Shown here: positions 2,264-20,685 of the stretch, piece by piece
How the letters are laid out: the number at the start of each line of letters is the position of its first letter
How positions within the stretch are numbered: position 1 is the stretch's first letter
Assembly (NCBI GenBank): GCA_964507075.1
Contig: CAZDOL010000007.1
Span: 1-31,843 of the forward strand
Reading direction: 5' to 3'
DNA length: 31,843 nt
Origin: an uncultured Gammaproteobacteria bacterium
GTDB lineage: Bacteria; Patescibacteriota; Patescibacteriia; UBA2591; UBA6264
Notes under the pieces: generated by a model
The model's database searches: none
Told to the model about the DNA's origin: nothing
What the model saw: only the letters and a program-made list of their open reading frames with translations
Translations under genes and position numbers: made by a program

Positions 2264-3373
2264 TTATAGTTTGGAGTCAGTAATCATACTTCTAATGTCT
2301 TTCATTAGGTCTAGGTAAAAAGCAAGGTTGTGAATCGTTGCTAATGTTTTACCTAATTGTTCTTTTGCCATAAATAAATGCCTAATATATGCTCTGGAAA
2401 AATTCTGACAAGCATAACAAGAACAATTTGAATCTAATGGTTTAAAATCATTTTTATACTTAGCGTTAGTTATATGTATTTTCTTATAAAAATTTGTTGA
2501 TAACCGACCCGACGGGTCAATTTTGTTAGACCTTGTGTACAATAAACCGTGACGAGCGTTACGAGTTGGAATTACGCAATCAAACATATCAACTCCCATT
2601 TTAACTGCCTCAACAATCTGTTCTGGTTTACCAGCACCCATCAAATAACGAGGTTTGTTCAATGGCAATTCTTGAATAGCAGATTGAATCGCCCCATATG
2701 TTTCTTTAATAGGTTCTCCCAATGTTAGTCCTCCAATAGCATATCCATTGAAGCCAATTTTAATAAGTTCTTTCGCGCTTTTGGCACGTAAATCTTTATA
2801 AACTGAACCCTGAACAATGCCGAAAAGCATCCTATTAATATTTTGCCTTTTATGGGCATTTTTACAAAGCTTTGCCCAAGCAGACGTCCTATCCACTGCT
2901 TTTTGCGTTTCAATTTTGGTGCAAGGCCACTTAACACATTCGTCCAAACACATTATTATATCTGACCCTAAAACATTTTGAATTTTGATAGCTTGAGCTG
3001 GTGATAGAAAAATACTTTTGCCATCAATTTCTGATTGAAATTCTACACCCTTATCACTAACCTTTCGTTTTTTAGATAGAGAAAATACTTGATAACCACC
3101 ACTATCTGTTAATATGGGACCTTTCCAACCCATAAAATTATGCAGTCCCTTGGCTTTCTTAATGGTGTTAAGTCCTGGACGTAAGAATAAATGATATGTA
3201 TTAGAAAGGAGAATTTGAGCACCCAAATTTTTTATTTGGGAAATAGTTAATCCCTTCACCGTAGCTTGAGTGGCAATAGGCATAAAAAACGGGGTATTTA
3301 TAATCCCATGTTTTGTTTTTAGCTTCCCTGAACGCGCTTGAGAAATATTAGATTTTTTGATTAACTTAAACAT
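2264..3373 (-). CDS. tgt: Queuine tRNA-ribosyltransferase (tRNA-guanine transglycosylase)
   Basis: 369 aa; TPFFMPIATQATVKG, LLSNTYHL, LTDSGGYQVFSL, the Zn site CSCYAC..H and the MFDCVIPTRNARHG motif. Confidence 0.92.
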   Translation of the reverse strand: MFKLIKKSNISQARSGKLKTKHGIINTPFFMPIATQATVKGLTISQIKNLGAQILLSNTYHLFLRPGLNTIKKAKGLHNFMGWKGPILTDSGGYQVFSLSKKRKVSDKGVEFQSEIDGKSIFLSPAQAIKIQNVLGSDIIMCLDECVKWPCTKIETQKAVDRTSAWAKLCKNAHKRQNINRMLFGIVQGSVYKDLRAKSAKELIKIGFNGYAIGGLTLGEPIKETYGAIQSAIQELPLNKPRYLMGAGKPEQIVEAVKMGVDMFDCVIPTRNARHGLLYTRSNKIDPSGRLSTNFYKKIHITNAKYKNDFKPLDSNCSCYACQNFSRAYIRHLFMAKEQLGKTLATIHNLAFYLDLMKDIRSMITDSKL

Positions 3374-10472: not shown

Positions 10473-10940
10473 ATGAAAATAATAGCTAAAAACAAAAAGG
10501 CCCTATATGATTATGAAATTTTAGATACCATAGAGGCTGGGATTGTTCTAACTGGACCTGAGGTGAAATCAATTAAAAACGGAAGGATAAACCTTGCTGG
10601 CAGTTATGTTATAGTGGATAACAAAAATAATGTCTACTTACTCAATGCTCATGTAGACCCCTATCCTCCCGCTTTTCAGGTCCAACAAGATTACGAACCC
10701 ACTCAAAGCAGAAAATTACTTCTCAAAAAAAAAGAAATCCAAGAAGTAATCGGAAAAACTCATATAGTAGGATTAAGTGCAATTCCATTAAAAGTTTATA
10801 CCAAAGGCAGTATTATAAAAATAGAAATTGCCATAGCAAAGGGCAAAAAAAAATATGACAAAAGACAGTCAATAAAAGAAAAAGATATTAAAAAAAGAAT
10901 CAACCAAAAACTTAAAGGTTCATTCAAATTTTCGGACTAA
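10473..10940 (+). CDS. smpB: SsrA-binding protein SmpB
   Basis: 155 aa; KALYDYEILDTIEAGIVLTGPEVKSI, RKLLLKKKEI and a basic C-terminal tail. Confidence 0.92.
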   Translation: MKIIAKNKKALYDYEILDTIEAGIVLTGPEVKSIKNGRINLAGSYVIVDNKNNVYLLNAHVDPYPPAFQVQQDYEPTQSRKLLLKKKEIQEVIGKTHIVGLSAIPLKVYTKGSIIKIEIAIAKGKKKYDKRQSIKEKDIKKRINQKLKGSFKFSD

Positions 10941-15887: not shown

Positions 15888-16273
15888 GGGGATGTCTTAT
15901 AATCGACGCGAGAAAATTGCGACGAAAACAAGCCTTTCGTACACCTTAGAGACGCGTTAGTTCTCTAAAACAAAATAAATGGCAAACTAATTGCTAAAGT
16001 AAGGCAAATGCTAAGCATTCCAGCCTTCAATTTTGCTAGAGCTTAAAAAAGCAACAGCCATCAAATTTTTGAATCCTGCTAAAAAATTTGATGTATTATC
16101 AGCGGGAAAACGACCAATCTGTCGCCCGAATAGAATGGTTGTATTAAATCGGGCTGTGATTAAAGGAATTTGTTCAATTTTAATCTTTAATCAAGAAATC
16201 AATTGAACTATAAAGGTAGAAATTTTTGTCTTAATTCCTGCGAACGCGGGGGAAGTACCCGCCATCTCCACCA
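15888..16273 (+). ncRNA. ssrA: tmRNA (SsrA), one-piece
   Basis: 5' GGGGATG pairs with 3' CATCTCC (G3-U70), followed by ACCA. The TCGACG motif sits near the 5' end, and the T-arm is GCGGG/CCCGC. An internal frame (at most 15981-16046) ends ...CCA GCC TTC AAT TTT GCT AGA GCT TAA (PAFNFARA*). The stop lies in a GCTT-AAAA-AAGC hairpin. 386 nt. Confidence 0.85.
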
Positions 16274-16402: not shown

Positions 16403-16651
16403 ATGCATTATGTTTACATTCTCCAAGGCACCAAAAACAATAGTCCATATACGGGAATTACAACTAACCTAAAACAAAGAATCAAGAATCACAACTCTGG
16501 ACAAGTCAAATCTACCTCAAGTAAAAAACCGTACAAATTAATTTGGTATTGCGCATTTGCTAGTAAAATTAATGCGTATAAATTTGAAAAGTATCTTAAA
16601 AGTGGATCGGGGGTGGCTTTCTCTAAAAAACATTTAAATTTAAAAAATTGA
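16403..16651 (+). CDS. Small GIY-YIG family nuclease
   Basis: 82 aa; YVYIL...YTGITTNLKQRIKNHNSG...KLIWY...A.KFEKYLK matches the GIY-YIG core (GIY ... YIG ... R ... H/N ... E). Confidence 0.8.
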   Translation: MHYVYILQGTKNNSPYTGITTNLKQRIKNHNSGQVKSTSSKKPYKLIWYCAFASKINAYKFEKYLKSGSGVAFSKKHLNLKN

Positions 16652-17434: not shown

Positions 17435-17779
17435 ATGCCAAGAGTTAAAAGAGGAAAAGCTCATCTCAAAAAAAGAAGAAAACTGCTAAAAGCAGTCAAG
17501 GGCTATCGTGGGGGACGAAAAAGTAAAATAAAGTTAGCAAAAACTGCTGTTAAAAAGGCTGGTGTTTATGCTTATCGCGATCGCCGAAACAAAAAAAGAA
17601 CCATGAGACGACTCTGGCAAATTAAAATCAATGCTGCTTGTCGGGGAAACAAATCAACATACTCTAAATTTATTGCTGGTTTAAAGAAAAATAAGATTGA
17701 AATAGACCGCAAAATCTTAGCTCAACTTGCAGAACATTATCCAGAAATCTTCATCAAAATCTCTGAAATGGTTCGGTAG
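17435..17779 (+). CDS. rplT: Ribosomal protein L20
   Basis: 114 aa; MPRVKRG, KGYRGGR, YAYRDRRNKKR..R.LWI.RINAA. Confidence 0.95.
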   Translation: MPRVKRGKAHLKKRRKLLKAVKGYRGGRKSKIKLAKTAVKKAGVYAYRDRRNKKRTMRRLWQIKINAACRGNKSTYSKFIAGLKKNKIEIDRKILAQLAEHYPEIFIKISEMVR

Positions 17780-17846
17780 ATCAATTGGTTAGATCATCTG
17801 CCTGTCACGCAGAAGGTTGCGGGTTCGAGTCCCGTCCGGACCGCCA
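17770..17846 (+). tRNA. tRNA-Asp (anticodon GUC), CCA encoded; 5' end overlaps the rplT 3' end
   Basis: GGTTCGG TA GATC AATTGGTTA GATC A TCTGC CTGTCAC GCAGA AGGTT GCGGG TTCGAGT CCCGT CCGGACC G CCA. Confidence 0.92.
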
Positions 17847-17854
17847 CTACCTTA

Positions 17855-17885
17855 AAATAGAGTTATTTACTCTATTTTTTATTTA
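17855..17885 (+). terminator. Rho-independent terminator after tRNA-Asp
   Basis: AAATAGAGT-TATTT-ACTCTATTT (9-bp stem) runs into a T-tract. Confidence 0.7.
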
Positions 17886-17952
17886 ATTTTGTCTTAAAAA
17901 GTTATCCACAGTATATATTTACAATAATAAATATTGGTGTCATACTAAATAA

Positions 17953-18020
17953 CAAGAAACCCTTATCATATGCTTCGGCAATGGTAAGCAACGAGAGGCT
18001 GTAAGGCCTCTTGTTTTTTT
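17953..18020 (+). ncRNA. Candidate small structured RNA or leader upstream of the NYN gene
   Basis: Promoter-like TTACAA (17919-17924), 16 nt, TGt-CATACT (17938-17946). Hairpin 1 is CTTATCAT..GC-TTCG-GC..ATGGTAAG (17962-17988). Hairpin 2 is CGAGAGGC-TGTAAG-GCCTCTTG plus T7 (17992-18020), an intrinsic terminator. Confidence 0.35.
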
Positions 18021-18063
18021 GCATATAAGCATTACACTAAATGATATTAAAATAATATAATAT

Positions 18064-18633
18064 ATGAATCTCCAAAGAATTGCCGTCTTTATAGACAATA
18101 GTAATGTGTTCAGAAACATTCAACGCATAAAAAAAATTGATTATAAGTGGATTTCTTTTTACAATCCACTTAAGCTTGCGCAGAAACTATCTGGTAACAG
18201 AAAATTAGTTTCCGTAAAATTCTATTGCGTTCATCCGCCAGTATATTTATTAGAAGAGGACGAAGAGCATAAAGAAAAATACAATATAACTAATAAATAT
18301 TATTCCGCTATCGAAAAATTACCTTTAGTAGAAGTTAAATATGGCGATCTTAAAGGCATAAGGGGCGCTCTACGTGAAAAAAATATAGATACACAAATTG
18401 CAACTAATATGGTAACAGAAGCAGCACTTAACAAATATGACACGGCTATTCTTATTTCTAATGATGGGGATTTCATTAGTGCTATTGAAAGTATAAAGGT
18501 GTTTAATAAAAAAATAGAAACAGTCTTCTTTAGGGGGTCTATATCAGAGAATCTAAAAAAATTAAGTGACATTACTAGACGCGCACGTCGATCTTATTTT
18601 CAACCATTAGATCTCCGCAAGAGAAATCTCTGA
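18064..18633 (+). CDS. NYN-domain (LabA/DUF88-like) predicted ribonuclease
   Basis: 189 aa; IAVFIDNSNV, KNIDTQIATNMV and ILISNDGDFISAIE reproduce the three acidic motifs of NYN/PIN-like nucleases. Confidence 0.75.
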   Translation: MNLQRIAVFIDNSNVFRNIQRIKKIDYKWISFYNPLKLAQKLSGNRKLVSVKFYCVHPPVYLLEEDEEHKEKYNITNKYYSAIEKLPLVEVKYGDLKGIRGALREKNIDTQIATNMVTEAALNKYDTAILISNDGDFISAIESIKVFNKKIETVFFRGSISENLKKLSDITRRARRSYFQPLDLRKRNL

Positions 18634-18700
18634 AAAAATGAATAAAAAAAATTCCCATTTTTTCCCATCAACTGATTGCTTGCTTCCTCCCAATACATAG

Positions 18701-18777
18701 TTCTGAAATCGTCCCCTAAACCCCGCCATTTAATAATACAAAAAATCGCTTTCAGCGGTTTTTTTTTATACAAAAAG
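18701..18777 (+). repeat. 3' end module copy A (contains an intrinsic terminator)
   Basis: TTCTGAAATCGTCCCCTAAACCCCGCC...AATACAAAAAATCGCTTTCAGCGGTTTTTTTTTATACAAAAAG. Terminator stem AATCGCT/AGCGGTT plus a T-run lies at 18744-18767. Alignable with 19858-19929. Confidence 0.65.
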
Positions 18778-18795
18778 TTATCAACGGGTTAAGTG

Positions 18796-18836
18796 TTGTA
18801 GATTCCTTGTCTTTGTGGTATTATTTTACCACAAGG
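18796..18836 (+). promoter_or_regulatory. Promoter with overlapping palindromic operator upstream of the XRE gene
   Basis: TTGTAG (18796-18801), 17 nt, TATTAT (18819-18824). The inverted repeat CTTTGTGGTA (18811-18820) / TACCACAAGG (18827-18836) matches 9/10 and spans the -10 box. Confidence 0.5.
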
Positions 18837-18861
18837 GTCAAGATCAACTAATTAAAAAATT

Positions 18862-19239
18862 ATGAAAAACAAAAATTTACAAAAATTTGGTCAAAAACTA
18901 AAAGAATTGCGGATTAATAGAGAATTAACTCTTAGAAAAATGTGTAGAAAAGTAGATTATGACCCAAGTAATTGGAGTAAAATAGAAAGGGGCAGAATCC
19001 CTCCCCCATCTAATGAAAAAATACTAAATAAATGGGCCGAAGCATTAGAATTAACAAATACTGTAGAAATCGAAAAATTCATAAGCGATGCACAAGTAGC
19101 ACAAGGCTTGATTCCGTCCGACATTATGAAAGAAGAAAATATTACAGAATGTCTGCCAGCTTTTTTTAGATCCATAAAAAAAGGAAAGATGACTAAAAAA
19201 GATATAGAAGAATTAATAAAATTAATCAGAAAAAGTTAG
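18862..19239 (+). CDS. XRE-family helix-turn-helix transcriptional regulator
   Basis: 125 aa; FGQKLKELRINRELTLRKMCRKVDYDPSNWSKIERG is a typical HTH_XRE. Confidence 0.8.
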   Translation: MKNKNLQKFGQKLKELRINRELTLRKMCRKVDYDPSNWSKIERGRIPPPSNEKILNKWAEALELTNTVEIEKFISDAQVAQGLIPSDIMKEENITECLPAFFRSIKKGKMTKKDIEELIKLIRKS

Positions 19240-19848
19240 ATGGAAATCCCGTATCTTAGTGACGAGAAAATTGAAAAAATAGCGAATAGCTTTAGAATTA
19301 AATTCTCAGACAATTCAATTCCTGTAAAAATGGAAGATGCTATAGAGTTGAAGCTAAGAATGTGTATTGTTCCATCGCCAGGGCTAAAATACCTCCAGGG
19401 AATAGACATGTTAATAACATCTGACTTTAAATCTATTTACGTTGATGAAAATAATTATTCTGACGAAACGCAAAAAAATAGATTAAGATTTTCTTATGCC
19501 CACGAAATCGGGCATTTTGTTTTACATAAAGATGTTTATAAAAAATTCGAAATAAAAGATTGGGAAGACCTTTACAACATTCAAGAAAAAGAATCTTATC
19601 AGAAAAATATTAAAAGAATTGACAAGCAAGCTGATATTTTTGCGGGATACCTTCTTATACCAGAAGACAGATTGAAACTTGAAGGGAATCAAATATTAGA
19701 GTCATTGGATGCAGAATTATTATCTAAAATAGAATCGGTCTCGAAAGAAACATTAAACCAATTATTAGCTTCTCAGTTATCGATTATTTTTGGTGTTTCT
19801 CAGATGGCTATGTTTATAGCATTAGAAAAACTTGAAAACAAAAAATAA
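19240..19848 (+). CDS. ImmA/IrrE-family (COG2856) zinc metallopeptidase
   Basis: 202 aa; FSYAHEIGHFVLH (HExxH) and downstream QADIFAGYLLIP. The ATG abuts the XRE TAG stop. Confidence 0.8.
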   Translation: MEIPYLSDEKIEKIANSFRIKFSDNSIPVKMEDAIELKLRMCIVPSPGLKYLQGIDMLITSDFKSIYVDENNYSDETQKNRLRFSYAHEIGHFVLHKDVYKKFEIKDWEDLYNIQEKESYQKNIKRIDKQADIFAGYLLIPEDRLKLEGNQILESLDAELLSKIESVSKETLNQLLASQLSIIFGVSQMAMFIALEKLENKK

Positions 19849-19857
19849 TTACTCAAT

Positions 19858-19929
19858 TTCTAAAAATCGTCCCGTAGTCCCCCACAATACAAAAAACCGC
19901 TTTAGGGCGGTATTTTTTTATACAAAAAT
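19858..19929 (+). repeat. 3' end module copy B (contains an intrinsic terminator)
   Basis: TTCTAAAAATCGTCCCGTAGTCCCCCACAATACAAAAAACCGCTTTAGGGCGGTATTTTTTTATACAAAAAT. Terminator ACCGC-TTTAGG-GCGGT plus T7 lies at 19896-19919. Confidence 0.65.
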
Positions 19930-19976
19930 ATTGAGGAACCGAGTTCCTCAATATTAACCGAGTTCCTCAATATTAA
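19927..19976. repeat. 13-bp-stem palindrome plus tandem 19-nt direct repeat at the tRNA-Arg 3' flank
   Basis: AATATTGAGGAAC-CGA-GTTCCTCAATATT (19927-19955). ACCGAGTTCCTCAATATTA occurs twice in tandem (19938-19956 and 19957-19975). Confidence 0.75.
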
Positions 19977-19978
19977 AA

Positions 19979-20050
19979 TACCCCTACCAGGAATCGAACC
20001 TGGGTCTTATCCTCCGCAAGGATACACTCTATCCATTGAGCTACAGGGGC
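19979..20050 (-). tRNA. tRNA-Arg (anticodon read as GCG), no encoded CCA
   Basis: Minus strand GCCCCTG TA GCTC AATGGATA GAGT G TATCC TTGCGGA GGATA AGAC CCAGG TTCGATT CCTGG TAGGGGT A. G-U pairs at 1-72 and 7-66; 4-nt variable loop. Confidence 0.8.
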
Positions 20051-20166
20051 ACAACTTCGCTTTGATTTACATCAAAGCTACGATGCGCAAGTAGACGCTT
20101 TAATATTGATGCTTGTCCTTCCGGAGCTCAAATGCAAATTTGAGCGCAGGAGGAAGCTACAGGGGC
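20051..20166. repeat. 104-nt double-hairpin insert flanked by a 12-nt direct repeat of the tRNA-Arg 5' end
   Basis: AGCTACAGGGGC occurs at 20039-20050 (tRNA positions 1-12) and again at 20155-20166. The 104 nt between hold two inverted units of the CCTTCGC...GCTWCGG family. Their apical hairpins are CTTTGAT-TTAC-ATCAAAG and GCTCAAAT-GCAA-ATTTGAGC. Confidence 0.7.
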
Positions 20167-20172
20167 AAAAGT

Positions 20173-20685
20173 TTATATCTTCAACCAACGATTCAAGCGA
20201 TCCATCAAAGTCTCGTTTTCTCTGTCTAAATCCTCCTCTAAGTATTCTTTGAGTATTTTTCTAATTTTTAAAGGATCTTTATCTCCTAATGGGACAGATA
20301 AGTCAGATAAAAACGCATTTTTTAGATCAATATACAACCTTTTTACTTGCGGGGGTTGATATACTAAATGAAAATTTTTAATATCTGACCAAGCATAAAA
20401 TTTGTTCTCGCCAAGCTTAATGCCATCTTCAAAAATATCAAAAGAGACCTTGCTTGGAGAACGATGGTCAGAAGAGAAAATTATGACCGCAAATAGAATT
20501 AAAAAAACTACAAAAAGGAAATTACCAGTTAGGAAAGAATAAAAAATAACAGAAGCTAAAACCAAAGAAATTAACAAATGCCACTTAAAATTTCTTTTGT
20601 GACGAGCATATTCAGGAAACGTCCAACCTAAAAGAAGACGTCCATAAATAGGGTCTTTTATTTGTTCTGTTTTTGGACGAGTCAT
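20173..20685 (-). CDS. Hypothetical membrane protein (two TM helices plus a soluble C-terminal domain)
   Basis: 170 aa; WHLLISLVLASVIFYSFLTGNFLFVVFLILFAVIIF. No catalytic motif recognised. Confidence 0.55.
   Translation of the reverse strand: MTRPKTEQIKDPIYGRLLLGWTFPEYARHKRNFKWHLLISLVLASVIFYSFLTGNFLFVVFLILFAVIIFSSDHRSPSKVSFDIFEDGIKLGENKFYAWSDIKNFHLVYQPPQVKRLYIDLKNAFLSDLSVPLGDKDPLKIRKILKEYLEEDLDRENETLMDRLNRWLKI

What the first reader, a model, noticed from the sequence alone, without database searches (positions are those of the whole stretch)
17847..20172. tRNA-bounded islet with a NYN RNase and an XRE-ImmA/IrrE pair: candidate protease-gated nuclease module
Housekeeping gene order is interrupted between tRNA-Asp (17770-17846, +) and tRNA-Arg (19979-20050, -). 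The ~2.1 kb between them carries three genes with no translation or repair role. One is a 189-aa NYN/LabA-like predicted RNase with all three acidic motifs (FIDNSN, NIDTQIATNM, SNDGDF). Another is a 125-aa XRE HTH regulator. The third is a 202-aa ImmA/IrrE (COG2856) peptidase with HEIGH, whose ATG abuts the XRE stop. XRE plus COG2856 pairs are established as prophage immunity switches (ImmR/ImmA) and as toxin-antitoxin-like pairs. Here there is no integrase, capsid or other phage gene. The neighbour is instead a stand-alone nuclease with its own small terminated RNA, and the cassettes end in homologous modules. I do not recognise this three-part arrangement as a named system. My hypothesis is a stress- or phage-sensing protease/repressor switch coupled to an RNase effector. 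That would be notable in a tiny episymbiont-type genome.
Basis: partly seen in the sequence, partly recalled or inferred. Interest (0 to 1): 0.7.

Follow-up and report, generated by a model that had tools for sequence, protein, structure and literature searches.

The report
Two independent cassettes, one RNA-linked RNase
The islet between two tRNA genes of this tiny-genome bacterium is not one three-part defence system: it holds two separable mini-modules, a repressor/protease switch of a known type and an RNA-cutting enzyme that always travels with its own small RNA, which I could not find described.

Summary
In detail: tRNA-Asp, a NYN RNase gene, an XRE gene abutting an M78 (ImmA/IrrE) peptidase gene, then tRNA-Arg. 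There are no phage genes nearby. The proposed coupling ("protease-gated nuclease") is not supported.

- **Co-occurrence.** In 47 loci with NYN orthologues from other Patescibacteria, only one (L047) has an M78 gene within 8 kb, and that pair belongs to a different subfamily.
- **Separability.** A relative with 94%-identical NYN has tRNA-Asp–NYN–tRNA-Arg without XRE–M78. Relatives with 80–86%-identical M78 have tRNA-Asp–XRE–M78–tRNA-Arg without NYN.
- **No wiring.** The XRE operator (TTGTGGTA-N6-TACCACAA, over its own −10) occurs once in the window, not at the NYN promoter.

What is new is the "small terminated RNA". It is a ~70-nt two-hairpin sRNA found beside NYN in all 45 loci checked, and nowhere else in about 1.6 Mb searched. 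It shows strong covariation. In 38 loci it lies upstream of NYN (promoter–sRNA–terminator–NYN). In 7 it is convergent with its own promoter. It has no Rfam match.

My best reading is a tRNA-flanked hotspot carrying two self-contained accessory cassettes. One is an sRNA–NYN pair, possibly type III toxin–antitoxin-like. The other is an autoregulated CapH/CapP-, ImmR/ImmA-type switch.

The parts
17770..17846 (+). tRNA-Asp (GTC); left border of the variable islet
   Evidence: ARAGORN and Rfam tRNA at 69.7 bits. The same tRNA borders the islet in L069-L071, L075-L077.
17902..17910 (+). TTATCCACA (DnaA-box consensus) 7 nt upstream of the -35; the conserved 5' edge of the sRNA-NYN cassette
   Evidence: It is the only exact copy in the window. 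A box with <=1 mismatch lies within 110 nt upstream of 22 of 48 sRNA promoters, mostly at -47 to -52. Background is 0.04 per 118 nt.
17918..17946 (+). Promoter of the sRNA (-35 TTTACA, 17 nt, -10 CATACT with an upstream TG)
   Evidence: Promoter scan. A TTGACA-like -35 sits at a fixed distance (-32 to -36) from the RNA model start in nearly all of the 48 copies checked.
17950..18022 (+). Conserved ~70-nt two-hairpin sRNA: 10-nt tail, a 10-bp hairpin with a UUCG loop, a 1-nt linker, then a terminator hairpin with a U-tract
   Evidence: Covariance-model hit at 17952-18019, 80.2 bits, E=2e-17. MFE is -27.4 kcal/mol, z=-4.55. Hairpin 1 is 98% paired across 35 sequences, with 6 pairs showing compensatory change; 0 of 500 shuffles reach the observed values. 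No Rfam match.
18064..18633 (+). NYN/LabA-like predicted metal-dependent RNase, 189 aa; no promoter of its own in tandem-type loci
   Evidence: Pfam NYN 8.5e-17. Invariant acidic motifs. AF2 pLDDT 92.4; best PDB matches are 2qip (LabA-like) and the MARF1 NYN domain. The subfamily has only 16 clusters at E<=1e-30 among 1.84 billion representatives.
18683..18769 (+). Repeat module A: conserved flank CTTCCTCCCAATACATAGTTCTGAAATCGTCCCCTAAACCCCGCCAT plus a weak terminator hairpin and T9
   Evidence: Direct repeats D3/D4. Alignment with the single module of the sister locus and with modules after M78 in L077 and L080.
18778..18786 (+). TTATCAACG, a degenerate DnaA-box-like element at the 5' edge of the XRE-M78 cassette
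   Evidence: The conserved block AAAAAGTTATnCACAGGTTAAG starts here in all five XRE-M78 loci aligned. It forms direct repeat D13 with 17896-17909.
18796..18834 (+). XRE promoter (-35 TTGTAG 18796-18801; extended -10 TGgTATTAT 18816-18824) overlapped by the perfect palindrome TTGTGGTA-N6-TACCACAA (18813-18834), the predicted XRE operator
   Evidence: Read from the sequence. It is the only match in the window at <=3 mismatches. It is conserved in all orthologous loci. It also lies directly upstream of XRE-M78 pairs whose XRE is 32-55% identical (L115, L131, L134, L152, L155) and of the pairs whose M78 is 42-45% identical (L240, L242).
18862..19239 (+). XRE-family repressor, 125 aa: HTH at 9-65 plus a ~60-aa C-terminal part
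   Evidence: Pfam HTH_19 6e-11. PADLOC capH 9.7e-9 over residues 7-123. Weak PDB sequence matches to the CapH HTH and to DdrO.
19240..19848 (+). M78 (ImmA/IrrE/CapP-type) Zn-metallopeptidase, 202 aa: peptidase plus a helical C-terminal part, no GAF domain
   Evidence: PF06114 2e-11. PADLOC capP 9e-18, profile positions 3-133 of 242. PDB sequence hit to CapP 7T5T at 2.5e-11. AF2 pLDDT 90.8 with an all-helical C-terminus. Fold matches to IrrE/PprI and CapP. H88, E89 and H92 are invariant; D127 aligns with the third zinc ligand of CapP (E129 in the paper's numbering).
19857..19928 (+). Repeat module B: partial copy of the flank plus a bidirectional terminator hairpin at 19896-19911
19927..19974 (-). 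Hairpin/terminator downstream of tRNA-Arg, containing a perfect 19-nt tandem duplication (19937-19955 and 19956-19974)
   Evidence: Repeat D6. Terminator-like site on the minus strand at 19955-19927.
19978..20051 (-). tRNA-Arg (GCG); right border of the islet
   Evidence: The same tRNA borders the islet in all related loci.

Best explanation
The region between tRNA-Asp and tRNA-Arg is a recombination-prone hotspot. In this lineage it holds two independent, self-contained accessory cassettes, not one three-gene system.

Cassette 1 (17896-18771)
- Layout (shown): a strong promoter drives a ~70-nt two-hairpin sRNA that ends in an intrinsic terminator. The NYN RNase gene follows with no promoter or Shine-Dalgarno sequence of its own.
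- NYN can therefore only be made from transcripts that read through the terminator. This follows from the layout: the terminator-to-ATG gap is 0-63 nt in the copies measured, and 0 nt in two of them.
- The sRNA and NYN are an obligate genetic pair (shown).
- Mechanism (inferred): the abundant sRNA binds the NYN RNase, or is cut by it, and keeps it in check. This resembles a type III RNA-antitoxin/RNase-toxin module. The terminator sets a high RNA:protein ratio.

Cassette 2 (18772-19930)
- The XRE dimer binds the palindrome that overlaps its own extended -10 and represses the XRE-M78 operon (inferred from strongly conserved anatomy).
- On a stress cue, the M78 peptidase cleaves or inactivates XRE and derepresses the operon, as in ImmR/ImmA, DdrO/IrrE and CapH/CapP (inferred by homology).
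- Its output beyond autoregulation is unknown. It is not wired to NYN.

Mobility: each cassette is present or absent independently in relatives. Each is more conserved than the flanking housekeeping genes, which indicates exchange by recombination.
For: Independence of the two cassettes
- 47 NYN-orthologue loci: M78 lies within 8 kb only in L047, both by tblastn and by a family HMM over all ORFs.
- 78 immediate neighbours share no Pfam family in more than 3 members.
- The sister lineage (NYN 94% identical) has tRNA-Asp-sRNA-NYN-one module-tRNA-Arg and no XRE-M78.
- L075/076, L077-079, L080/081 and L241 (M78 66-86% identical) have rplT-tRNA-Asp-XRE-M78-tRNA-Arg-bPH gene and no NYN or sRNA.
- The operator occurs once per locus, always at XRE, and never at the sRNA/NYN promoter.

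sRNA-NYN pairing
- The covariance model finds the RNA in 45 of 45 NYN-orthologue loci from other genomes, and in the window, the sister loci and the P0002 loci.
- It finds no other significant copy in about 1.6 Mb searched: 0 hits in the 327-kb viral set, and only one E=0.62 match (18 bits, L241) beyond the positive controls in the 535-kb set.
- 38 loci are tandem. 7 are convergent, each with its own TTGACA/TATAAT promoter and a terminator abutting the NYN stop.
- Covariation is strong, and 36 of 36 copies fold the same way.

Accessory and mobile nature
- NYN is 94% identical where the flanks are 80-81%. XRE is 97% and M78 84% where RecG is 60% and the bPH gene 57%.
- L081 carries a YafQ/RelE-like toxin ORF where the window has sRNA-NYN. 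L048 has sRNA - HicB-like ORF - sRNA - NYN.
- Direct-repeat junctions separate occupied from empty sites.

Switch nature of XRE-M78
- PADLOC capH and capP hits, the CapP sequence hit and IrrE/PprI/CapP fold hits.
- The operator is conserved down to pairs whose XRE is 32% identical.
Against: - Nothing here shows NYN toxicity, RNA binding or RNA cleavage.
- Known type III antitoxins are tandem repeats and their toxins are ToxN-like. Here the RNA is a single unit and the protein is NYN.
- Both the RNA and NYN are unusually well conserved (mean 59% protein identity). That would also fit a dedicated RNA-processing pair or an RNP rather than a selfish toxin-antitoxin module.
- HEC-09, the PADLOC model that NYN matches best, gave no phage defence when tested.
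- For XRE-M78, no output gene is identified. COG2856 proteins tested in pneumococcus were not toxic.
- M78 lacks the GAF domain. In IrrE and CapP the ssDNA-binding groove lies between the peptidase and GAF domains.
- One independent co-occurrence (L047) and the window itself leave a small chance of loose functional synergy.
- Only 5-32 kb per genome was visible, so distant operator sites, or NYN copies elsewhere in the NYN-less genomes, cannot be excluded.
Confidence: 0.6

Rival explanations
1. XRE-M78 and NYN form one three-part system: a stress- or phage-sensing protease cleaves the repressor, which releases expression or activity of the NYN RNase effector.
For: The genes are adjacent and co-directional in the window. 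L047 also has an XRE-M78 pair 1.2 kb upstream of sRNA-NYN. CapH/CapP-type pairs are known to control toxic effectors.
Against: - Co-localisation is seen in 1 of 47 other genomes, and that pair belongs to a different XRE-M78 subfamily without the operator.
- Each part occurs alone at the same locus in close relatives.
- No operator lies at the NYN promoter.
- NYN has its own promoter, sRNA and terminator, and sits upstream of the regulator rather than divergent from it or downstream of it.
- The NYN cassette is instead invariably paired with the sRNA.
Confidence: 0.06
2. The conserved RNA is only a cis-acting 5' leader: a transcription attenuator or an autoregulatory target of the RNase, as with the rnc or rne leaders. 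On this view NYN is a housekeeping RNA-processing enzyme and the RNA has no trans function.
For: - In 38 of 45 loci the RNA sits between the only promoter and NYN. The terminator must be read through, and in L034 the ATG directly follows the U-tract.
- Both partners are highly conserved.
- Neighbours are housekeeping genes.
Against: - In 7 loci the RNA is on the opposite strand downstream of NYN, with its own consensus promoter. There it cannot be a 5' leader.
- L048 has a copy in front of a non-NYN ORF.
- The family is rare and patchy, with 16 clusters at E<=1e-30.
- It is absent from close relatives (L075-L081) and is more conserved than its flanks. None of this fits a core housekeeping function.
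Confidence: 0.17
3. XRE-M78 is the surviving immunity region (ImmR/ImmA-like) of a decayed prophage or integrative element that once inserted next to the 3' end of tRNA-Arg.
For: - It lies beside the 3' end of a tRNA gene.
- It is flanked by 45-75-nt direct repeats, with an 'empty site' in L068.
- Read from the tRNA-Arg side, the order tRNA - M78 - XRE puts the pair at the tRNA-proximal end of the insert, as expected for an ImmR/ImmA immunity region with the integrase lost. That comparison with ICEBs1 rests on my own knowledge; one search gives only ImmR/ImmA function.
Against: - The same compact two-gene unit is intact in at least 6 lineages, at 66-97% identity, with a conserved promoter and operator and no phage or ICE gene anywhere.
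- Divergent family members sit among murB/secA or recA with no mobile-element genes.
- IMG/VR holds only relatives at 25-39% identity over extended matches.
- The repeats are explained by unequal recombination at shared terminators.
Confidence: 0.1
4. XRE-M78 is a chromosomal DdrO/IrrE-like stress (DNA-damage) regulator with a dispersed regulon elsewhere in the genome. It would act as an SOS substitute in these bacteria.
For: - Best fold matches are IrrE/PprI.
- XRE has DdrO-like size and a two-part layout.
- The pair is embedded in core-gene contexts, beside recG/radA in one clade and directly after recA in L242.
- It is autoregulated, as ddrO is.
Against: - No second operator was found in any of 15 loci, 1.5-32 kb each, including upstream of recG, radA or recA.
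- The pair is absent from the L068 lineage. It is much more conserved than its flanks, which suggests an exchangeable accessory module.
- It lacks the GAF domain.
Confidence: 0.22

Closest known systems
CapH/CapP (CBASS-associated HTH repressor plus Zn-peptidase; Lau et al. 2022, bioRxiv 10.1101/2022.04.27.489752; Calloji et al. 2026)
   Same: Adjacent HTH repressor and PF06114 peptidase genes. These give the best PADLOC hits (capP 9e-18, capH 1e-8). CapP is the only solved structure found by sequence (2.5e-11). There is a conserved palindromic site in the promoter.
   Different: No divergently transcribed immune operon shares the promoter. M78 lacks the C-terminal GAF domain, which forms one side of the ssDNA groove, and it lacks the cysteine-switch loop. 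The operator overlaps the pair's own -10 rather than lying upstream of a -35 of a cargo operon.
ImmR/ImmA of ICEBs1 and phage phi105
   Same: A compact XRE repressor is followed by a short GAF-less M78 peptidase in one operon with abutting genes. Autorepression is predicted.
   Different: The pair is not inside an ICE or prophage. There is no int or xis and no element genes to derepress.
DdrO/IrrE (PprI) of Deinococcus
   Same: Best structural matches for M78. The XRE is about 125-129 aa, with an N-terminal HTH and a C-terminal part. The setting is chromosomal and among housekeeping genes.
   Different: The genes are adjacent here. M78 has no GAF domain, and no regulon sites were detected in the sequence available.
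Type III toxin-antitoxin systems (ToxIN, CptIN, TenpIN)
   Same: The order promoter -> small RNA -> intrinsic terminator -> endoribonuclease gene without its own promoter. RNA and protein are strictly linked. The unit is compact, patchily distributed and lies in variable contexts.
   Different: The RNA is a single two-hairpin unit, not a tandem repeat array. The protein has a NYN (PIN-like) fold, not a ToxN-like one. A convergent arrangement also exists. Both partners are unusually conserved, and toxicity is untested.
PADLOC HEC-09 (Hma-embedded NYN candidate; Payne et al., bioRxiv 10.1101/2024.01.29.577857)
   Same: A stand-alone LabA/MARF1-like NYN protein with conserved aspartates. HMM match E=3.8e-15.
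   Different: It is not embedded in an Hma system. HEC-09 itself gave no defence against the phages tested. No associated sRNA is mentioned in the HEC-09 passages I read.
Xre-COG2856 predicted type II toxin-antitoxin / mobile stress-response modules (Makarova et al. 2009, PMC2701414)
   Same: A stand-alone two-gene Xre plus COG2856 module that behaves as a mobile accessory unit.
   Different: Toxicity of COG2856 proteins has not been confirmed where it was tested (PMC4257102). No third toxin gene is present here.

Membership tests
NYN / LabA-like nucleases (PF01936) | Profile match above the curated threshold | tested here: met
   62.4 bits against a cutoff of 24.2, residues 5-168.
NYN / LabA-like nucleases (PF01936) | Conserved acidic metal-binding residues and the NYN/PIN-like fold | tested here: met
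   D11, D109, D134 and D136 are invariant in 23 orthologues. The model has pLDDT 92. Best PDB matches are 2qip and the MARF1 NYN domain, probability 1.0. The geometry of the acidic pocket itself was not measured.
CapH/CapP regulator pair | Adjacent HTH repressor and PF06114 Zn-peptidase with HExxH plus a third acidic ligand | tested here: met
   H88, E89 and H92 are present, and D127 aligns with the third zinc ligand of CapP (E129 in the paper's numbering).
CapH/CapP regulator pair | Encoded upstream of, and divergent from, an immune operon whose promoter it shares | tested here: not met
   The upstream neighbour is co-directional (NYN, with a terminator between) and the downstream neighbour is a tRNA. 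In relatives the pair is alone between two tRNAs.
CapH/CapP regulator pair | Three-domain peptidase (peptidase, HTH-like linker, C-terminal GAF) that senses ssDNA in the inter-domain groove | tested here: not met
   The protein is 202 aa. The model is all-helical after residue 142, with no GAF beta-sheet. The capP profile is matched only over positions 3-133 of 242.
CapH/CapP regulator pair | Cysteine-switch loop (present in about one third of CapP proteins) | tested here: not met
   No Cys lies between H92 and D127; the only Cys is C42. This feature is optional in the family.
ImmR/ImmA | The pair resides in, and controls excision or transfer genes of, an ICE or prophage | tested here: not met
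   No integrase, excisionase or element genes within +/-10 kb in 24 contigs, or in any orthologous locus. No close viral relatives.
ImmR/ImmA | Short GAF-less peptidase co-transcribed after the repressor | tested here: met
   The genes abut (TAG then ATG). M78 has no GAF domain. ImmA also lacks the GAF domain.
DdrO/IrrE | The repressor controls a regulon through a shared palindromic motif upstream of repair genes | tested here: inconclusive
   Only the autoregulatory site was found in 1.5-32 kb per genome. Whole genomes were not available.
Cleavable-repressor switches in general (COG2856/XRE) | The peptidase cleaves or inactivates its cognate XRE on a stress signal | not testable with these tools
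   This needs biochemistry. It is inferred only from homology and the conserved operator.
Type III toxin-antitoxin | Gene order promoter - RNA - terminator - toxin gene | tested here: met
   38 of 45 loci and the window. The other 7 loci are convergent.
Type III toxin-antitoxin | The antitoxin is an array of tandem direct repeats processed into units | tested here: not met
   There is a single ~70-nt unit per locus. Only L048 has two copies, and they are separated by an ORF.
Type III toxin-antitoxin | ToxN/AbiQ-type toxin fold | tested here: not met
   The protein has a NYN fold.
Type III toxin-antitoxin | The protein is toxic and is neutralised by direct binding of the RNA | not testable with these tools
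   This needs expression and rescue assays plus binding assays.
PADLOC HEC-09 | NYN protein embedded in an Hma defence system, with anti-phage activity | tested here: not met
   There is an HMM match (3.8e-15) but no Hma genes nearby. HEC-09 itself showed no defence.
Integron-like cassette array | IntI integrase with attI, and attC sites ending each cassette | tested here: not met
   No integrase in the window or the contigs. The repeated modules are terminator hairpins plus a flank, and relatives hold a single copy at the empty site.

The most novel reading that the evidence does not exclude
The sRNA-NYN pair is a previously unrecognised class of RNA-protein module specific to Patescibacteria. 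In it, a non-repetitive two-hairpin sRNA acts as the antitoxin, inhibitor or obligate partner of a NYN RNase. That would be a new type III-like toxin-antitoxin family, or a new small RNP. It is expressed from a promoter that carries a positioned DnaA-box-like element, and it moves as an ~0.9-kb cassette between tRNA-flanked hotspots.
Probability: 0.3. Interest if true: 0.75.

Novelty: new variant of a known kind. Interest (0 to 1): 0.58.

Why it matters
- **Guilt by adjacency fails here.** Two accessory cassettes stacked in one tRNA-flanked hotspot can look like a multi-gene system when they are not.
- **A new candidate RNA class.** The work uncovers a structured small RNA with strong covariation that is strictly linked to a discrete NYN RNase subfamily in candidate-phyla-radiation bacteria. 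It has no Rfam family, and I found no paper describing it.
- **If the RNA restrains or partners the RNase.** That would add a new architecture to RNA-based toxin-antitoxin or RNP biology, in organisms whose small genomes leave little room for non-essential genes.
- **A minimal switch to study.** The XRE-M78 pair is a GAF-less, cargo-less relative of CapH/CapP and DdrO/IrrE. Its operator is conserved across pairs as little as 32% identical in XRE. That makes it a clean system for asking what such switches sense and control in episymbionts.

Tried and rejected
1. Prophage edge. No phage, ICE or integrase genes within +/-10 kb in 24 contigs. There are no NYN relatives in IMG/VR, and the M78 relatives there are only 25-39% identical over extended matches.
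2. Integron-like cassette array with attC-like modules. There is no integrase. The modules are terminator plus flank, present once at the empty site. Unequal or homologous recombination at shared terminators explains the duplication.
3. Origin of replication, suggested by the perfect DnaA box. There is only one exact box in the window, and it is positionally tied to cassette promoters in many genomes.
4. NYN as a tRNA-processing enzyme, because tRNAs flank it. The tRNA adjacency is not conserved: L072, L073 and L047 have no tRNA nearby, and neighbours are diverse.
5. Regulon hunt. It was still useful: five loci showed the exact palindrome in front of XRE-M78 pairs whose XRE is 32-55% identical.
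6. RNA pattern scan of IMG/VR. It gave 28 hits, which is about what a rough estimate predicts by chance for 16 specified bases. None was confirmed by the covariance model.
7. NCBIfam gave no meaningful names. Rfam gave no family for the sRNA.
8. A small ORF on the minus strand across module A is not conserved in the sister lineage, by my reading of the sequences.
9. Phage and plasmid collections hold only NYN proteins at about 27% identity, for example on a 3.5-kb enterobacterial plasmid. This was not informative.

Full report
**1. Observation**

- ARAGORN and Rfam place tRNA-Asp(GTC) at 17770-17846 (+) and tRNA-Arg(GCG) at 19978-20051 (-).
- Three ORFs lie between them on the + strand:
  - 18064-18633 (189 aa): Pfam NYN, E=8.5e-17.
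  - 18862-19239 (125 aa): HTH_19/HTH_31.
  - 19240-19848 (202 aa): Peptidase_M78, E=2e-11, with HEIGH.
- The M78 ATG directly follows the XRE TAG.
- Upstream lie a tmRNA gene, a small GIY-YIG ORF, infC, rpmI and rplT. Downstream lie a 170-aa membrane/bPH-like gene, a Wzy_C gene and tyrS.
- The same islet is present in the 24 metagenome or genome contigs read, including NCBI GCA_000405165.1. None has phage genes within +/-10 kb.

**2. Do NYN and XRE-M78 belong together?**

- A scan of one genome per species returned 47 loci with close NYN orthologues (43-64% identity), nearly all labelled as, or resembling, Patescibacteria.
- tblastn with all window proteins found an M78 gene within 8 kb in only one locus, L047, at 31% identity. 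It found no XRE.
- A family HMM of M78 run over every ORF of these loci again found only L047.
- The 78 immediate neighbours of NYN share no Pfam family in more than three members. They are release factor, RecG, FtsH, tRNA synthetases and the like.
- The L047 pair lacks the operator described below.

**3. Close relatives show the two parts separately at this very locus**

- Contigs whose NYN is 94% identical (L068-L071) read tRNA-Asp - NYN - tRNA-Arg - bPH gene - Wzy, with no XRE-M78.
- Contigs whose M78 is 66-86% identical (L075/076, L077-079, L080/081, L241) read rplT - tRNA-Asp - XRE - M78 - tRNA-Arg - bPH gene, with no NYN.
- Identity calibration:

| Window compared with | Flanking / housekeeping proteins | Cassette proteins |
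|---|---|---|
| L075 | 83-95% | XRE 90%, M78 86% |
| L080 | RecG 60%, bPH 57% | XRE 97%, M78 84% |
| L068 | bPH 81%, Wzy 80% | NYN 94% |

Both cassettes are therefore accessory. Each is independently present or absent among species-level relatives. Each is more conserved than its surroundings, as expected if they are exchanged by recombination anchored in the conserved tRNA flanks.

In L081, the place taken by NYN in the window is taken by a YafQ/RelE-like toxin ORF. That supports the view of a hotspot that collects small selfish or accessory modules.

**4. The repeated 'modules'**

- The sister lineage has one copy of a ~90-nt element between NYN and tRNA-Arg. It consists of a conserved flank (…TTCTGAAATCGTCCCGTAG-CCCCGCCAT…) plus a terminator.
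- The window has two copies, 18683-18769 and 19857-19928, bracketing XRE-M78.
- The same element follows M78 in L077 and L080, and also precedes XRE in L080/081.
- A second short repeat, AAAAAGTTATC(C/A)AC, brackets the NYN cassette at 17896 and 18772. It marks the conserved 5' edge of both cassettes.
- In the sister lineage the terminator after tRNA-Asp is of the same type as the one after NYN. Unequal recombination between such terminators in a 'NYN-only' genome and an 'XRE-M78-only' genome would produce exactly the window's arrangement.
- No recombinase is present, so I treat the modules as recombination scars or substrates, not as att or attC sites.

**5. The XRE-M78 cassette**

*Promoter and operator*
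- The promoter region is almost invariant across all orthologous loci: -35 TTGTAG (18796-18801), a 17-nt spacer, and an extended -10 TGgTATTAT.
- A perfect palindrome, TTGTGGTA-N6-TACCACAA (18813-18834), lies over the -10.
- It is the only such site in the window at up to 3 mismatches. It occurs once per locus, always immediately upstream of XRE.
- A metagenome scan for the exact palindrome was mostly noise. It did recover five loci in which it precedes XRE-M78 pairs whose XRE is only 32-55% identical. Pairs whose M78 is 42-45% identical (L240, L242) keep it with 2 mismatches.
- This is strong in-silico evidence for a cognate autoregulatory operator.

*Family assignment*
- PADLOC's best models are capP (9e-18) and capH (1e-8).
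- The only solved structure found by sequence is CapP 7T5T. The best fold matches are IrrE/PprI and CapP.
- The AF2 model (pLDDT 90.8) is a peptidase domain followed by helices only. It has no GAF domain and no cysteine-switch loop.
- In that respect it resembles the short ImmA more than CapP or IrrE, whose ssDNA groove lies between the peptidase and GAF domains.

*Output*
- No cargo gene accompanies the pair. In cousins it is alone between the two tRNAs. In more distant genomes it sits among murB/secA or directly after recA.
- The mechanism I infer is autorepression by XRE, relieved when M78 cleaves or inactivates it.
- The output is undetermined. It could be a dispersed regulon, as with DdrO/IrrE, or a self-contained Xre-COG2856 stress or toxin-antitoxin-like module (Makarova 2009). 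COG2856 proteins tested in pneumococcus were not toxic.

**6. The NYN cassette and its small RNA: the unexpected part**

*Discovery and structure*
- Aligning the 260 nt upstream of the NYN orthologues showed a conserved element right after a TTGACA/TATAAT promoter: AAnAAAUCCUUAUCGUgUGCUUCGGCuACGGUAAGCAACGAGAG[GC-rich hairpin]CUCUUGUUUUUU.
- In a 35-sequence alignment, the first hairpin (10 bp, UUCG loop) is paired in 98% of cells.
- Six pairs show compensatory changes, in 33 cells. No shuffle in 500 reaches the observed values, and slid controls give 20-61% pairing.
- All 36 copies examined fold the same way: a 10-nt tail, hairpin 1, a one-nucleotide linker, a terminator hairpin and a U-tail.
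- The window copy (17950-18022) has MFE -27.4 kcal/mol, z=-4.55.

*Linkage to NYN*
- A covariance model built from the alignment found 53 hits in 804 kb. Every hit lies next to a NYN orthologue. They cover all 45 NYN-orthologue loci checked, plus the window, the sister loci and the P0002 loci.
- It found no hit in the NYN-less XRE-M78 loci, none next to distant NYN homologues from other phyla, and none in 327 kb of viral DNA. In 535 kb of other DNA only the positive controls matched, plus one E=0.62 match.
- Rfam has no match. Three literature searches found no description.

*Two gene arrangements*
- In 38 loci the order is promoter - sRNA - terminator - NYN.
- The gap between the U-tract and the ATG is 0-63 nt in the copies measured, and 0 nt in L034 and L024. 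NYN can therefore only be expressed by terminator read-through there.
- In the 7 most divergent orthologues (43-52% identity) the sRNA gene lies just downstream of NYN on the opposite strand. It has its own consensus promoter, and its terminator abuts or overlaps the NYN stop codon.
- The RNA is therefore a gene in its own right and not merely a 5' leader.
- L048 carries two copies, one of them in front of a HicB-like ORF.

*The protein*
- The model is confident (pLDDT 92.4). Its best structural matches are the LabA-like protein 2qip and the MARF1 NYN domain.
- The acidic motifs are invariant.
- The subfamily is small and discrete. Only 16 representative clusters reach E<=1e-30 among 1.84 billion, against 791 at 1e-10 for the wider LabA-like family.
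- It matches PADLOC's HEC-09 model. HEC-09 gave no phage protection when tested.

**7. Mechanism**

Shown:
- The sRNA and NYN are an obligate genetic pair.
- The sRNA has its own strong promoter and terminator.
- In most genomes NYN transcription depends on read-through of that terminator.

Inferred:
- The sRNA is made in excess. It binds the RNase, or is processed by it, and so limits its activity or expression.
- The closest known logic is a type III toxin-antitoxin module. However, two defining features were tested and not met: tandem-repeat RNA and a ToxN-like toxin. It works like one at most, and it is not a member.
- The high conservation of both partners keeps a dedicated RNA-processing or RNP role alive.
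- I put roughly 0.3-0.35 on the toxin-antitoxin-like reading, about 0.17 on a purely cis-regulatory leader, and the remainder on other RNA-protein partnerships.
- Independence from XRE-M78 I hold at about 0.85-0.9.

**8. Verdict**

The islet idea and the identification of the parts are right. The three-part 'protease-gated nuclease' system is not supported.
- The XRE-M78 pair is a new, minimal member of a known kind.
- The sRNA-NYN pair appears undescribed. It is best filed as a new variant of RNA-protein (type III-like) modules until it is tested.
- Interest is moderate to high, because of the sRNA, not because of the original hypothesis.

Noticed in passing
window 17902-17910 and 18778-18786; L012-L057 upstream of the sRNA promoters: A DnaA-box-like element (TTATCCACA, in either orientation) sits about 8-10 nt upstream of the -35. 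It is found in 22 of 48 sRNA-NYN promoters, against a background of 0.04 per 118 nt. With 1-2 mismatches it is also found in the XRE promoters of the window, L075, L077 and L080. It could be a shared transcription-factor or DnaA site, or a cassette boundary.
   Followed up: partly
window 15888-16273 (+): Rfam finds a full-length tmRNA (85 bits) that ARAGORN did not report in the window. smpB is at 10473-10940.
   Followed up: partly
window 16403-16651 (+): An 82-aa stand-alone GIY-YIG ORF (Pfam 7.5e-18) overlaps the TTG start of infC by 4 nt. It is conserved at this spot in L075 (62% identity) and is relocated in L080/081.
   Followed up: no
window 19937-19974: A perfect 19-nt tandem duplication (AACCGAGTTCCTCAATATT x2) lies within the hairpin/terminator just downstream of tRNA-Arg.
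   Followed up: no
window 20039-20057 and 20155-20173: A 19-nt repeat (89% identity) duplicates the 5' end of tRNA-Arg 116 nt away, at the end of the bPH-like gene. It may be a chance match or an old recombination scar.
   Followed up: no
L081 159-422 (+): A YafQ/RelE-like type II toxin ORF (87 aa) occupies the position upstream of the left repeat module, where the window has sRNA-NYN. This suggests the hotspot collects toxin-antitoxin-type cassettes.
   Followed up: partly
L048 3559-4961: There are two copies of the sRNA. The first precedes a 209-aa ORF with a weak HicB-like antitoxin match, and the second precedes NYN.
   Followed up: partly
L052 7897-9318: The sRNA is followed by an N-terminally truncated NYN (residues 67-183 only), then by a second, divergent NYN paralogue (187 aa, 29% identical).
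   Followed up: no
L036 7352-9231: Here the sRNA-NYN cassette is inserted between infC and rpmI-rplT, splitting a normally contiguous operon.
   Followed up: no
L242 4359-6594: A divergent XRE-M78 pair (M78 42% identical), with the same operator at 2 mismatches, lies directly downstream of recA.
   Followed up: partly
L082, L085, L089, L133, L135, L149 (metagenome, GC ~0.55): The same TTGTGGTA-N6-TACCACAA palindrome recurs in a conserved, unrelated context (…GAAGGTCAAGCATTGTGGTA…TACCACAAATGTGGTAAT…). It is probably the operator of another regulator family in a different organism.
   Followed up: no
NZ_CP091696.1 (L244) 2395-3048: A 3.46-kb plasmid found in E. coli and Serratia encodes a NYN-domain protein (27% identical), next to a VbhA-family antitoxin gene and an HTH gene.
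   Followed up: no
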